From positions 128,001-192,000 of the forward strand of contig JAYTSD010000020.1 of assembly GCA_043745805.1 (NCBI GenBank): a stretch of 64,000 nt of DNA, given 5' to 3'. Every line of letters starts with the position of its first letter. Position 1 is the first letter of the stretch. A program made the position numbers and the translations under genes. The notes beneath the pieces were generated by a model. It was not told the DNA's origin. It did no database searches and saw only the letters and a program-made list of their open reading frames with translations. Of this stretch, positions 24,159 through 35,180 are shown piece after piece. Origin of the DNA: Fibrobacteria bacterium (GTDB lineage: Bacteria; Fibrobacterota; Fibrobacteria; UBA11236).

Positions 24159-27101
24159 ATGCAAGAAACACTTTATCTCATCGACAGTTCGGCTGTGGCC
24201 TTCCGTTCTTTTTATGCTTTTATCAATCGCCCTTTAGTCAATTCCAAAGGCCGTGAAACTTCGGTGATATTTGGTTTTGCGTCACATATATTGCGTTTGA
24301 TTAATGAATGTCATCCTACTCATATTGCCATTGTACAAGACTTACCCAAAAAAACTTTTCGTCATCATATGTATCAAGAATACAAGGCGCATCGCAAACC
24401 CATTCCCGAAAATCTGATTACGCAATTACCGGATGTAAATGAATTTGTTGAGCTCTCAGGATTACATTGTATTTCCAAAGAAGGATTTGAAGCCGATGAT
24501 GTGATTGGGACTTTAGCCTTACAAGGCAAACGTGCAGGCATGAAAGTATTTATTGTCAGTCGCGATAAAGATTTAATGCAATTGGTGGATGATGATATTT
24601 TAATGTTTGATCTAGGTTCTGCTGGCGAAGCCTCCACTACTATGGGTGTCGCGGAAGTCAAAGAAAAAATGGGAGTACCACCAAAGCAAATCGTTGATTT
24701 ATTAGCCCTCATAGGCGATGCTTCGGATAATGTTCCGGGCGTGGCTAAAATAGGCCCCAAAACCGCTGCTGATTTGTTGGCCACTTATGGTAACTTAGAG
24801 AATACCTATAAAAATGCTGAAAGCATTAGCAAAAAGGGCTTACGCGAGAATTTGCTTAAAGATAAAGAGATGGCCTTCCTTTCGCAAAAACTGGTTACCT
24901 TGGATTGCGATATCGTTTTGCCCGTAGGCCTGGAAAATTTTCGTTATCAAGGCTTGGATCTCAAAGCTATTAATACTTTTGTAGAAAATTTAGAACTGCA
25001 TTCTTTACGTAAATTTATTCCCAAAGAGAATACGGTCACTTCGACAGGCTCAGTTTCCGCAGGTGTAAGCTCAGTGAATGTAGTGGCCGCAGTATCTGGA
25101 GGTGGGCGCTCTACATCCAGGGGATCAGCAGTTGCAGGGAACCCTTCTTTACTTGATGATTCGATGATCGGTACTGTTCCTTCGACAAGCTCAATGTCTT
25201 CGGTGTCTGGTAAGGGTGACTCGGTAGTCACTGAGTCTGTCGAAGTGACGGAAGTGACCGAAGCAGCAGCCAAAGCGAATCGCTCTCACTTGCACTATCA
25301 ATTAGCGTATGGTGAAGAAGCACTTGATAAGCTATTTCAAGAATTGCGTAAAGCCGACATCATTGCGCTCGATACCGAAACTACGGGTCTTGATACTAAT
25401 ACCGCAGGCTTGGTGGGTATTTGTCTTTCCACGCAAAGTCATACCGGCTGGTATATTCCGATAGGACATCATGCAGGTCCAAATTTGAGTCTGGAGGAGG
25501 CGCGCAAATTTTTAAGCCCGATTTTCCATGACGCAAACAAAAAATTTATTTTCCACAATGCCAAATATGATATTCCTATTTTAGAGCGTCATGATTTTTT
25601 ACCATCCTGTTTATTTTTAGGCGGAAATTTAATCGATACCATGGTGGCGACTTATGTATGTAATCCGGGTACGCGCCGCTTATCGCTCGATGATTTAGCG
25701 ATGGATCATTTTCAACATGCCATGATTCCTATTGAGGTGTTAATTGGCAAAGGAAAAAATCAAAAAAGCTTTGCCGAAGTGCCGGTGGATAAAGCCTGTG
25801 AATATGGTGCGGAAGATGCCGACATTACTTTTCGCTTATGGGAAATTTTCTCCAAAGAATTAACCGAGAAAAATTTAAGCCAACTTTTTTTCACCATGGA
25901 AATGACTTTGCTGCCAGTATTATTGCGCATGGAAGGTCGCGGAATAACTTTAGATGTTAATGTCTTAAAAACTCTTTCTGAACAATTAAAACTGGAAATC
26001 GCGCGCCTCGAAAATGAAATCTTTACTTTAGCCGGACAAATTTTTAATGTCAGTTCGCCTTTGCAATTGCAAGAAATTCTTTTTGCAAAACTCGGATTAA
26101 AAACTGGTAAAAAAACCAAAACGGGCTATTCCACTGATGCCGACGTATTGGGTAAATTAGAAGGGAAGCATCCCATTATTAGTTTGCTTTTGGATCATCG
26201 TGAATGCACCAAGCTACGTAGCACTTATGTAGAGGCTTTGCCGGAAATTGCCGATCCCGTAACACACAAAATCCACACACATTATTCCCAAGTGATTGCT
26301 GCCACCGGACGCTTATCCAGCATTAATCCCAATTTGCAAAATATTCCCATCCGCACCGAAACAGGCCGGAAAATTCGCGGTTGCTTTGTGCCGTCATCGC
26401 CTGATCACGTTTTATTATGTGCCGATTATTCGCAAATTGAATTGCGCCTGCTTGCGCATTTGAGTGGCGACCCCGCACTTTGCGAAGCTTATCAAAAGGG
26501 TTTGGATATTCATAGTCGCACGGCTTCCATTCTCTATAAAATCCCCGAAGATCAAGTGACATCCGATATGCGACGCAATGCCAAGGTGGTTAATTTTGGC
26601 GTACTTTATGGCATGGGACCACAACGCTTATCCGCGCAACTCAAAATCCCGCGTGCGGAAGCGCAACAATTTATCGCTAATTATTTCAGTACTTATGCTT
26701 CCGTGGACCGTTACATACAAGATACCATAGAAAGTGGTCGCCGTTTGGGTTATGTGGAAACCCTAGCGGGGCGCAAAAGGTTTTTACCCGATTTAATGTC
26801 CGATAATCGAATGTTGAAAGAAAATGCGGAACGCATTGCTGCGAATACGCCAATTCAAGGCAGCGCAGCAGATCTAATCAAAATTGCCATGATTAGCATT
26901 GATAAAAAAATAGCCGCTAAAGGTTGGGATTGTGCCATGCTTTTGCAGGTACATGATGAATTGGTATTTGAAGTACATACTCGCGATGTGGCTGCTGCTT
27001 CGGAATTTATTCGCGAGGAAATGATAAATGCCATGCAATTGCGAGTGCCTTTAACCGTGGAAATCGGCACCGGCTTGACTTGGCTATCAGCTCACTCCTA
27101 A
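24159..27101 (+). CDS. polA: DNA polymerase I with a repeat-derived linker insertion
   Basis: 5'-3' exo (EADD, GDASDNVPG), 3'-5' exo (DTET, HNAKYD, YGAEDAD), polymerase motifs DYSQIELR and QVHDEL. Confidence 0.97.
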   Translation: MQETLYLIDSSAVAFRSFYAFINRPLVNSKGRETSVIFGFASHILRLINECHPTHIAIVQDLPKKTFRHHMYQEYKAHRKPIPENLITQLPDVNEFVELSGLHCISKEGFEADDVIGTLALQGKRAGMKVFIVSRDKDLMQLVDDDILMFDLGSAGEASTTMGVAEVKEKMGVPPKQIVDLLALIGDASDNVPGVAKIGPKTAADLLATYGNLENTYKNAESISKKGLRENLLKDKEMAFLSQKLVTLDCDIVLPVGLENFRYQGLDLKAINTFVENLELHSLRKFIPKENTVTSTGSVSAGVSSVNVVAAVSGGGRSTSRGSAVAGNPSLLDDSMIGTVPSTSSMSSVSGKGDSVVTESVEVTEVTEAAAKANRSHLHYQLAYGEEALDKLFQELRKADIIALDTETTGLDTNTAGLVGICLSTQSHTGWYIPIGHHAGPNLSLEEARKFLSPIFHDANKKFIFHNAKYDIPILERHDFLPSCLFLGGNLIDTMVATYVCNPGTRRLSLDDLAMDHFQHAMIPIEVLIGKGKNQKSFAEVPVDKACEYGAEDADITFRLWEIFSKELTEKNLSQLFFTMEMTLLPVLLRMEGRGITLDVNVLKTLSEQLKLEIARLENEIFTLAGQIFNVSSPLQLQEILFAKLGLKTGKKTKTGYSTDADVLGKLEGKHPIISLLLDHRECTKLRSTYVEALPEIADPVTHKIHTHYSQVIAATGRLSSINPNLQNIPIRTETGRKIRGCFVPSSPDHVLLCADYSQIELRLLAHLSGDPALCEAYQKGLDIHSRTASILYKIPEDQVTSDMRRNAKVVNFGVLYGMGPQRLSAQLKIPRAEAQQFIANYFSTYASVDRYIQDTIESGRRLGYVETLAGRKRFLPDLMSDNRMLKENAERIAANTPIQGSAADLIKIAMISIDKKIAAKGWDCAMLLQVHDELVFEVHTRDVAAASEFIREEMINAMQLRVPLTVEIGTGLTWLSAHS
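25033..25260. repeat. Family B palindromic repeats inside polA (inverted pair plus partial copies)
   Basis: cggtcacttcgacaggctcagt 25033-25054; ccttcgacaagctca 25179-25193; inverted gtcactgagtctgtcgaagtgac 25227-25249. Confidence 0.85.
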
Positions 27102-32618: not shown

Positions 32619-32753
32619 AGGGGAAAGCCTTCCCCTGGCCTCGGCTTCACGATTTAACACGGTGGTTACGGTCACATTCGACAAGCTCAGTGACCGAACG
32701 GGGAATGTTAAATCGTGTGATCCTCGGCCACCCCTTCTCCATCACGGCAGTGT
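32619..32753. repeat. Composite nested palindromic element (family C with a family B hairpin inside)
   Basis: Hairpin 32619-32636; IR cacgatttaaca 32648-32659 / tgttaaatcgtg 32706-32717 enclosing the hairpin at 32669-32696; 32723-32753 recurs inverted at 35150-35180. Confidence 0.8.
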
Positions 32754-35083: not shown

Positions 35084-35120
35084 GGTTACGGTCACATTCG
35101 ACAGGCTCAGTGACCGTAAC
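35084..35120. repeat. Family B palindromic hairpin
   Basis: 35084-35116 matches 32664-32696 at 32/33 nt. Confidence 0.85.
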
Positions 35121-35149
35121 GCCCGTGTTTACGGACGCAGAGTCCCTCC

Positions 35150-35180
35150 ACACCGCCGTGATGGAGAAGGGGTGGCCGAG
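35150..35180. repeat. Family C repeat, inverted copy of 32723-32753
   Basis: 30/31 nt reverse-complement identity. Confidence 0.85.

What the first reader, a model, noticed from the sequence alone, without database searches (positions are those of the whole stretch)
25033..25260. Palindromic repeat pair inserted in frame into polA, creating a ~75-80 aa linker
Seen: the Ser/Val/Thr-rich stretch between the 5'-3' and 3'-5' exonuclease domains is bounded by inverted repeats. 25035-25054 (gtcacttcgacaggctcagt) and 25230-25249 (actgagtctgtcgaagtgac) are reverse complements at 19/20 nt. Partial copies lie at ~25067 and 25179-25193. The same motif forms free intergenic hairpins at 32669-32696 and 35085-35120. 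Known: Rickettsia palindromic elements insert in frame into housekeeping genes, polA included. Inference: a mobile REP/REPIN-like family here is creating new peptide sequence inside a core gene, in a lineage where I know of no such report.
Basis: partly seen in the sequence, partly recalled or inferred. Interest (0 to 1): 0.75.

Follow-up and report, generated by a model that had tools for sequence, protein, structure and literature searches.

The report
Mobile hairpin repeats translated inside polA
The flexible linker of this sediment bacterium's only DNA polymerase I gene carries three in-frame copies of a small hairpin repeat that is scattered through its genome and many other bacteria, a real but already documented kind of "selfish DNA inside a working gene".

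Summary
The polA linker (window 25023-25292) contains three full copies and two partial copies of a ~27-nt hairpin unit, cGGTCAC-TTCGACARGCTCA-GTGACCg. The core occurs 33 times in the 3.95-Mb genome and 0 times in the reversed control.

The same unit sits in frame in two more genes, ispG and a membrane-protein gene, always in the only frame without stops (VTSTGSVT / VTEPVEVT).

The repeats did not create the linker. In 26 relatives it is 16-67 aa; here it is 90 aa.

There is no RAYT transposase. A 103-aa single-domain GIY-YIG nuclease gene is wrapped in seven copies of the hairpin. Its homologues are repeat-flanked at 17 of 23 loci, against 8 of 400 random places.

This resembles the published Ssn nuclease / SRM hairpin system, but the hairpin fails the published SRM motif (0 of 33). 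Six of 19 high-copy genomes have no homologue at the search threshold, and none was found flanked by the motif in the five examined.

The exact 23-nt hairpin occurs in at least six phyla by record title.

In-frame REP insertions in polA are already published (2013). Earlier notes of this scan describe similar elements on other DNA.

Verdict: a new variant of a known kind, of moderate interest.

The parts
24159..27101 (+). polA (DNA polymerase I), 980 aa, the only copy in the genome
   Evidence: ORF. Pfam finds 5_3_exonuc_N 1-164/164, 5_3_exonuc, DNA_pol_A_exo1 and DNA_pol_A 3-380/381. There is 1 match in G000.
25023..25292 (+). Interdomain linker (residues 289-378, 90 aa) between the 5' nuclease and the 3'-5' exonuclease domains
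   Evidence: Anchored alignment with 26 relatives, whose linkers are 16-67 aa, median 38.
25033..25059 (+). Hairpin unit copy 1 (core 25040-25052, exact), read as TVTSTGSVS. The right stem arm is eroded (GTTTCC for GTGACC).
   Evidence: The DNA fold is no better than shuffles (z -0.11).
25067..25076 (+). Partial unit (AAGCTCAGTG: loop end plus stem arm)
   Evidence: Family D2. Similar tandem partial units lie at G000:C46:1613-1674.
25174..25200 (+). Hairpin unit copy 2 (core 25181-25193, exact), read as VPSTSSMSS. Stems are eroded.
   Evidence: Fold z -0.60.
25226..25251 (-). Hairpin unit copy 3 (core 25232-25244, 1 mismatch), reverse orientation, read as VTESVEVT. With copy 2 it forms an inverted doublet 51 nt apart.
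   Evidence: Fold z -1.22.
25251..25260 (+). Extra partial stem arm (GAAGTGACCG), giving the EVTEVTE repeat in the peptide
   Evidence: Pair I5 (10/10 complementary to 25033-42). Sequence.
32664..32696 (+). Intergenic copy of the hairpin, with an extended stem
   Evidence: DNA fold -7.5 kcal/mol, z -3.15.
35084..35122 (+). Intergenic copy of the hairpin, with an 11-bp stem
   Evidence: DNA fold -11.1 kcal/mol, z -5.32.

Best explanation
The Ser/Thr/Val-rich stretch in the polA linker is made of copies of a small mobile hairpin repeat. The unit has a 6-7-bp covarying stem and a conserved 13-nt loop, TTCGACARGCTCA. The copies landed, probably more than once, in an already variable, flexible interdomain linker.

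They survive there because they lie in the one reading frame that has no stop codon. They are therefore translated as short peptide modules (VTSTGSVT forward, VTEPVEVT reverse), and their stems have since decayed.

Shown here: membership of the repeat family, the multicopy and patchy distribution, the in-frame state in three genes, and the intact host gene. The 'only open frame' rule is read by hand from the codons.

Inferred: the units move as single-stranded DNA hairpins. Their partner enzyme is the 103-aa single-domain GIY-YIG nuclease gene that sits inside a cluster of them at G000:C46:1694-2005. This would work like the published Ssn nuclease / SRM hairpin pairs.
For: Family and mobility
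- The genome holds 33 exact cores against 0 in the reversed control.
- Copy number among 32 genomes of the same family runs from 0 to 90.
- In a sample of 151 genomes of the phylum, 123 have a match and counts reach 194; controls give 0-2.
Record titles name Bacteroidota, Chloroflexota, Actinomycetota, Bacillota, Armatimonadota, Syntrophaceae and Fibrobacterota.
- Across 137 aligned units only about 27 nt are conserved. Neighbouring units keep the loop but change both stem arms together.

In-frame copies
- Five of the 33 exact cores, plus 2 one-mismatch partners, lie in three long genes. These are polA, ispG (Pfam GcpE, 414.8 bits) and a 768-aa membrane protein.
- All are read as VTST[GS]SV / VTE[PS]VEVT.
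- Reading the codons by hand, the reverse unit has a stop in the other two frames.
- The three in-gene doublets are spaced 42, 51 and 72 nt, all multiples of 3. Five intergenic inverted pairs are spaced 32, 56, 70, 80 and 58 nt, none a multiple of 3 (positions; the C46 cluster was left out).
- In other genomes, 22 of 121 loci of at least 300 nt are open end to end through the hairpin, in the same readings (one of the 22 is mostly masked).

Tolerant site
- Linkers of relatives are 16-67 aa.

Nuclease link
- The gene scores 63.6 bits on Pfam GIY-YIG.
- Seven cores lie within about 200 nt of it, and its last codons are a hairpin copy.
- Homologues in G010 (62% identity), G044 (77%) and a Chloroflexota genome (59%) are flanked by the same hairpin.
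- 17 of 23 homologue loci share a repeat of at least 14 nt between their two flanks, against 8 of 400 random places in G000.
- 13 of 19 genomes with 20 or more cores have a homologue at E<=1e-10, against 34 of 132 others (kin are not independent).
Against: - No empty site could be shown, because no same-genus genome is held.
- In ispG the doublet adds only about 2 aa compared with relatives.
- In the membrane protein the loop is 27 aa against about 15 in most relatives. A clean insertion event is therefore not demonstrated in any of the three genes.
- Six of the 19 high-copy genomes (194, 90, 62, 37, 26 and 20 cores) have no homologue of the nuclease at E<=1e-10.
- In five of these, 0 of 7 small GIY-YIG genes have the motif within 300 nt, and one genome has no GIY-YIG hit at all.
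- Two of five other-phylum genomes that hold the hairpin gave no homologue.
- On a tree of 27 nucleases the flank-motif classes cluster only weakly. All classes together need 10 changes against 15.3 for shuffles. The class with this loop needs 5 changes, and 58 of 500 shuffles do as well.
- Translation of the linker is not shown: no RNA run was listed.
Confidence: 0.75

Rival explanations
1. The hairpins are host-serving elements, not selfish mobile DNA. They could be RNA stabilisers or terminator-like structures, or marks for an Ssn-type single-strand nuclease that limits uptake of foreign DNA. On this view the polA copies are incidental by-products.
For: Most copies are intergenic (28 of 33 exact cores lie outside long ORFs) and fold stably. 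Chenal et al. show that NTS/SsnA modulates transformation in Neisseria (PMC11893778, abstract and discussion read).
Against: Copy number swings from 0 to 194 among related genomes. Copies sit inside essential genes with decayed stems. Neither fits a conserved host function. Rfam has no matching family in the window or at a cluster locus.
Confidence: 0.12
2. It is a classical REP/REPIN family moved by a RAYT (Y1/HUH) transposase.
For: The units are short hairpins that often form inverted doublets 30-100 nt apart, as REPINs do.
Against: PF01797 gives no match in G000, which is 99% complete, while the control genomes ring. In five relatives it gives one weak hit (26.5 bits, G014), and none in G010 (90 cores) or G012 (19 cores, closed). 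There is no GTAG or CGTC tag in the 137-unit consensus.
Confidence: 0.04
3. The similarity arose locally, by slippage or duplication within a low-complexity linker, or through misassembly across repeats. On this view there was no insertion of a dispersed element.
For: The linker contains partial tandem pieces (25067-76, 25251-60). Contigs of runs X3 and X4 break inside it.
Against: Runs of 20-27 nt in the linker are near-identical to copies on seven other contigs. The units are shorter than usual assembly word sizes. A 59-kb Logan contig spans the stretch with 0 differences in X1 and X2 (these may be the source samples, so they are not independent).
Confidence: 0.04

Closest known systems
Intragenic REPs / Rickettsia palindromic elements (RPE). 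Source: Di Nocera, De Gregorio & Rocco 2013, PMC3733652 (passages and section 15 read).
   Same: Both are short hairpin repeats, mostly intergenic. Single units or dimers lie in frame inside functional genes and add about 10-30 aa, often in flexible linkers. DNA polymerase I and other repair genes are named as recurrent hosts.
   Different: The sequences are unrelated. This unit has no GTAG or CGTC tag. The conserved part is a 13-nt loop, not the stem or a tag. The published CGTC families have 8-9-bp stems and 4-5-nt loops. The host here is a free-living sediment member of the Fibrobacterota (phylum inferred), not an intracellular bacterium.
Ssn single-domain GIY-YIG ssDNA nucleases with NTS/SRM hairpin repeats. 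Source: Chenal et al. 2025, PMC11893778 (sections 6, 7, 10, 12 and 17 and Supplementary Data 4 header read).
   Same: A single-domain GIY-YIG gene of about 100 aa is flanked on both sides by copies of a hairpin repeat that is also dispersed through the genome. The nuclease-repeat pairing recurs across phyla. The architecture resembles an insertion sequence.
   Different: The hairpin does not fit the published SRM search motif (0 of 33 cores). Its geometry differs, with a long conserved loop. CDD cd10448 membership of this nuclease could not be tested. Its nearest solved relatives are UPF0213 proteins (1zg2, E 2e-13). No biochemistry exists for it.
REPIN/RAYT systems (PMC3116915; search listing only)
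   Same: Inverted doublets of a short hairpin form the repeated unit, with a patchy within-genome expansion.
   Different: No RAYT gene was found.

Membership tests
REP/REPIN with RAYT | A Y1 (HUH) transposase gene (PF01797) in the genome, typically flanked by the repeats | tested here: not met
   0 matches in G000, with controls positive in 6 of 14 named genomes. In five relatives there is 1 weak hit of 26.5 bits; none in G010 or G012.
GTAG- or CGTC-tagged REP superfamilies (PMC3733652) | A conserved GTAG or CGTC tetranucleotide at one end; for CGTC also an 8-9-bp stem and a 4-5-nt loop | tested here: not met
   The consensus of 137 units is a.GGTCAC-TTCGACAgGCTCA-GTGACCGgt: no tag, a 6-7-bp stem and a 13-nt loop.
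Rickettsia palindromic elements | Sequence membership in RPE-1 to RPE-10 of Rickettsia | not tested
   No RPE sequence was available from a tool. The resemblance is in behaviour only (in-frame hairpin repeats).
Ssn / SRM system | A single-domain GIY-YIG protein of about 100 aa | tested here: met
   103 aa; PF01541 at 63.6 bits over profile positions 2-75 of 78; no other domain.
Ssn / SRM system | The gene is flanked on both sides by copies of a dispersed hairpin repeat | tested here: met
   Seven cores lie within about 200 nt of the G000 gene. 17 of 23 homologue loci share a repeat of at least 14 nt across their flanks, against 8 of 400 controls.
Ssn / SRM system | The repeats fit the published degenerate SRM motif HGTCWYN(0-2)YYVSBRHN(0-5)WNVSBRGN(0-2)RNCYNB | tested here: not met
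   G000 has 5 matches against 7-15 in five block shuffles. 0 of 33 cores have a match within 25 nt.
Ssn / SRM system | The protein belongs to CDD cd10448 (GIY-YIG_unchar_3) | not testable with these tools
   No CDD library and no SsnA sequence is on hand. NCBIfam gives only a sub-threshold hit. PDB gives UPF0213 proteins. Supplementary Data 4 of PMC11893778 lists a cd10448 homologue in Fibrobacter succinogenes S85 with only 2.3-fold SRM enrichment.
Ssn / SRM system | Site-specific cleavage of single-stranded DNA next to its hairpin | not testable with these tools
   This needs a nuclease assay.

The most novel reading that the evidence does not exclude
The hairpin with the TTCGACARGCTCA loop may be an undescribed, pan-bacterial class of mobile hairpin partnered with a clade of tiny GIY-YIG nucleases. 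It is structurally distinct from the published SRM/NTS and REP classes and invisible to the published SRM search. It would write the same three peptide modules (VTSTGSVT, VTEPVEVT, GHFDKLSD) into proteins of many phyla. It would also explain why genomes such as Fibrobacter carry Ssn-type genes without an enriched SRM.
Probability: 0.45. Interest if true: 0.65.

Novelty: new variant of a known kind. Interest (0 to 1): 0.45.

Why it matters
The finding adds Fibrobacterota (phylum inferred) to the lineages in which hairpin repeats are translated inside essential genes. It gives another independent case of DNA polymerase I as a host, a bias noted in 2013 and still unexplained.

More usefully, it points to a second kind of hairpin tied to small GIY-YIG nucleases, one with a long conserved loop. 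If that holds, it widens the set of site-specific single-strand DNA nuclease and target pairs. It also supports the view that such nucleases, and not only RAYT transposases, spread short repeats.

For annotation, the three recurrent peptide modules flag repeat-derived segments in proteins and many spurious small ORFs.

Tried and rejected
- Rfam at gathering thresholds gave 0 families in the window and at the C1 cluster loci.
- A literature search for the four 13-mers gave 2 unrelated papers. Searches with Fibrobacter plus palindromic, repeat, hairpin and intergenic gave nothing relevant. Nothing newer than Chenal 2025 turned up for GIY-YIG hairpin repeats.
- 'TTCGACA' and 'TGTCGAA' are absent from the 10 supplementary files of PMC11893778 that are held as text. 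Figures of both papers are not held, so a drawn motif could have been missed.
- Three contigs carry copies about 5.3 kb from their start. They share no sequence there, so this is coincidence.
- The other small GIY-YIG gene of G000 (C1:150605) has no flanking hairpins and is of a different type, which I recall as YhbQ-like.
- A 187-aa ORF over the copy at C35:21114 has an odd composition and was not counted as a gene.
- Matches with 1-2 mismatches inside long ORFs (C1:43428, C1:73607, C8:67068, C20:37605, C28:30340, C44:84457) were treated as chance and not counted.
- The protein atlas gave only generic PolA clusters and no usable taxon.
- Folded as RNA, the whole linker is only marginally more stable than shuffles (z -1.97, 6 of 200).
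- No RNA holder was listed among the public runs. In X3 and X4, positions 25097-25119 have no contig cover.
- The 'joint' 25054-25227 is the other doublet locus (C20:82469-82523) laid on by its repeats. It is not a deletion allele of polA.
- The hit in a MAG titled Methanomethylophilaceae archaeon is doubtful, because that genome also holds a bacterial-type PolA at 46% identity.
Full report
**Observation**

The window encodes a 980-aa DNA polymerase I at 24159-27101. All four Pfam domains are matched essentially full length. It is the only polA match in the genome.

Between the 5' nuclease and the 3'-5' exonuclease domains lies a Ser/Thr/Val-rich stretch. It also finds a 27-nt direct repeat (25031-57 / 25172-98, 78%) and a 10-nt partial copy at 25067-76.

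The motif TTCGACARGCTCA, with up to 1 mismatch, hits the window five times against 0.10 expected. Three hits are in the linker. Two are intergenic (32677, 35097) and fold as stable DNA hairpins (z -3.15 and -5.32).

**The repeat family**

In the whole 3.95-Mb assembly (50 contigs, 40% G+C) the exact core occurs 33 times, against 0 for the reversed control.

The unit is about 27 nt: cGGTCAC-TTCGACARGCTCA-GTGACCg. Of the 33 cores, 28 have at least 5 of 7 flanking positions paired. Other copies keep the loop but change both stem arms together, for example GGCGC/GCGTC and GACAT/ATGTC. Units often form inverted doublets 30-100 nt apart.

BLAST of the loci shows that only the unit is shared, not the spacers. 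Rfam has no family for it.

**In-frame copies**

Besides polA, two more long genes carry a doublet. One is ispG (619 aa, Pfam GcpE)...EWVTSTSSVTGLSNQAIALVLKPATSVTEPVEVTVW.... The other is a 768-aa membrane protein with no Pfam family...SVTSTGSVTAKSVIPVTEPVEVTC....

So 5 of the 33 exact cores, plus two one-mismatch partners, lie in three genes. They are always read the same way. Read by hand, the forward unit has one frame with a stop and the reverse unit has two. A doublet therefore has only one open frame.

The in-gene doublets are spaced 42, 51 and 72 nt, all multiples of 3. Five intergenic inverted pairs are spaced 32, 56, 70, 80 and 58 nt, none a multiple of 3 (positions; the complex C46 cluster was left out). 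This is what selection against frame-breaking insertions would leave behind.

Inside polA the stems have decayed (z -0.11, -0.60 and -1.22).

**Did the repeats create the linker?**

No. In 26 full-length relatives the segment between the same anchors is 16-67 aa (median 38), low-complexity and unalignable. Here it is 90 aa. None of the relatives' polA loci has an exact core.

In ispG the doublet sits in a variable region and adds only about 2 aa relative to family members. In the membrane protein the loop is 27 aa against about 15 in most relatives.

No same-genus genome is held, so a clean empty site could not be shown. The copies enlarge or overwrite loops that were already tolerant.

**Assembly**

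Four public runs of one sediment-metagenome study hold the stretch. In two of them, which may be the source samples, a 59-kb Logan contig spans 24700-25600 with no difference. In the other two, contigs end at 25096 and 25120 and are otherwise identical. The apparent 172-nt 'joint' is the doublet of the membrane-protein gene laid on by its repeats. I see no sign of misassembly.

**Distribution**

- In the same family, 24 of 32 genomes have the core, with counts from 0 to 90.
- In a sample of 151 genomes of the phylum, 123 have it, with counts up to 194 and controls of 0-2.
- Record titles name Bacteroidales, Chloroflexota, Actinomycetota, Lachnospiraceae, Armatimonadota, Syntrophaceae and Fibrobacterota.
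- One 'archaeal' MAG also holds a bacterial PolA and is doubtful.
- Of 121 such loci of at least 300 nt, 22 are open end to end through the hairpin, again as VTST[GS]SVT, VTEPVEVT or GHFDKLSD (one of the 22 is mostly masked).

The window's phylum is Fibrobacterota by inference. The family-mates of a MAG with that title have the same coordinates and counts as G087, G088 and G106, which labels 'same phylum'.

**What moves it?**

No Y1/RAYT transposase was found in this genome, nor in relatives with 90 and 19 copies.

At G000:C46:1694-2005 a 103-aa ORF is a single-domain GIY-YIG nuclease. It scores 63.6 bits on PF01541, and its nearest solved relatives are UPF0213 proteins (1zg2, E 2e-13). Seven cores lie within about 200 nt of it, and its last codons (GRFDKLSD) are a hairpin copy.

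Homologues with 59-77% identity are flanked by the same hairpin in G010, in G044 and in a Chloroflexota genome. Other homologues are flanked by related hairpins with other loops, such as TTCGACTACGCTCA, TTCGGCTCCGCTCA, TTCGAGAGCCTCA, or loops enlarged by an inner hairpin.

Overall, 17 of 23 homologue loci share a repeat of at least 14 nt between their flanks, against 8 of 400 random places in G000. In the phylum sample, 13 of 19 genomes with 20 or more cores have a homologue at E<=1e-10, against 34 of 132 others. Kin are not independent.

**Evidence against the nuclease link**

- Six high-copy genomes, including the richest with 194 cores, have no homologue at that threshold.
- In five of them, 0 of 7 small GIY-YIG genes have the motif within 300 nt, and one has no GIY-YIG hit at all.
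- Two of five other-phylum genomes gave no homologue.
- A tree of 27 nucleases resolves poorly and shows only weak clustering of flank-motif classes.

The nuclease link is therefore a good lead, not a demonstration.

**Comparison with what is known**

Di Nocera et al. 2013 (PMC3733652; passages and section 15 read) catalogue REPs inside genes of several phyla. They state that many lie in replication and repair genes, DNA polymerase I included. They also state that R. conorii RPE-4 and RPE-6 are CGTC-type REPs. The present unit has neither a GTAG nor a CGTC tag, and its geometry differs.

Chenal et al. 2025 (PMC11893778; sections 6, 7, 10, 12 and 17 read) show that single-domain GIY-YIG proteins of CDD family cd10448 (Ssn) cut single-stranded DNA next to their flanking hairpin repeats (NTS/SRM). 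They note the insertion-sequence-like architecture. The arrangement here is the same. However, their degenerate SRM motif matches G000 only 5 times (shuffles give 7-15) and none of the 33 cores.

Their Supplementary Data 4 lists a cd10448 homologue in Fibrobacter succinogenes S85 with only 2.3-fold SRM enrichment. This fits a cognate repeat of another type. I could not test cd10448 membership of the protein studied here.

**Earlier notes of this scan**

The scan describes in-frame hairpin repeats and hairpin-flanked mini GIY-YIG genes on other DNA, mostly CPR and Bacteroidota. None matched this sequence. Those notes gave me the leads to the two papers. I found the nuclease adjacency here, before reading them.

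**Verdict**

The mechanism is of a published kind, and polA as a host is in print. What seems new is the hairpin class itself (long conserved loop, many phyla, missed by the SRM definition) and its presence in Fibrobacterota.

Noticed in passing
window 32723-32753 and 35150-35180: A 31-nt inverted repeat (97%) brackets a 2.4-kb segment. The segment holds a pilin-like gene, a 95-aa integrase-core fragment and a 217-aa ORF. A hairpin copy lies just outside each arm, in direct orientation (32664-96, 35084-116). It may be a decayed composite mobile element.
   Followed up: no
window 32619-32660; also G000 C4:119428-69, C15:179-224, C30:5340-74, C6:151617-48: A second dispersed repeat module of about 40 nt often lies next to the hairpin unit (90-97% identity). 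This suggests mosaic repeat clusters.
   Followed up: partly
L018:1500-1512 (polA linker of relative G007): A one-mismatch core (TTCGACAAGCACA) lies in that relative's polA linker and is read in the same frame (HSTSTATK). It has no clear stems. It could be a decayed old copy or chance.
   Followed up: partly
L040-L172 (loci from other genomes): In-frame copies of the same hairpin appear in apparently real proteins of other phyla, for example a 2-oxoacid dehydrogenase E2-like linker (L150) and TldD/PmbA-like proteins (L146, L154). One locus holds a run of five VTEPVE repeats (L133). The protein names are my reading of the translations, not tool results.
   Followed up: no
G000 C15:147, C18:625, C21:136: Hairpin copies sit within a few hundred bases of contig ends. 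The repeats or their neighbours may be breaking the assembly, so the true copy number may be higher than 33.
   Followed up: no
table (G098, G100, G110, G132, G138, G142, G159, G170, G073): Several homologues of the small GIY-YIG gene carry one in-frame stop (TGA, TAA or TAG). They look like decaying copies.
   Followed up: no
L068 / G051: A MAG titled Methanomethylophilaceae archaeon holds the hairpin and also a bacterial-type PolA (46% identity to this one). It is probably a mis-binned bacterial contig.
   Followed up: partly
G000:C46:1613-1674: Three tandem 21-nt partial units (stem arm plus loop end) lie just upstream of the GIY-YIG gene. They resemble the partial pieces inside the polA linker.
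   Followed up: no
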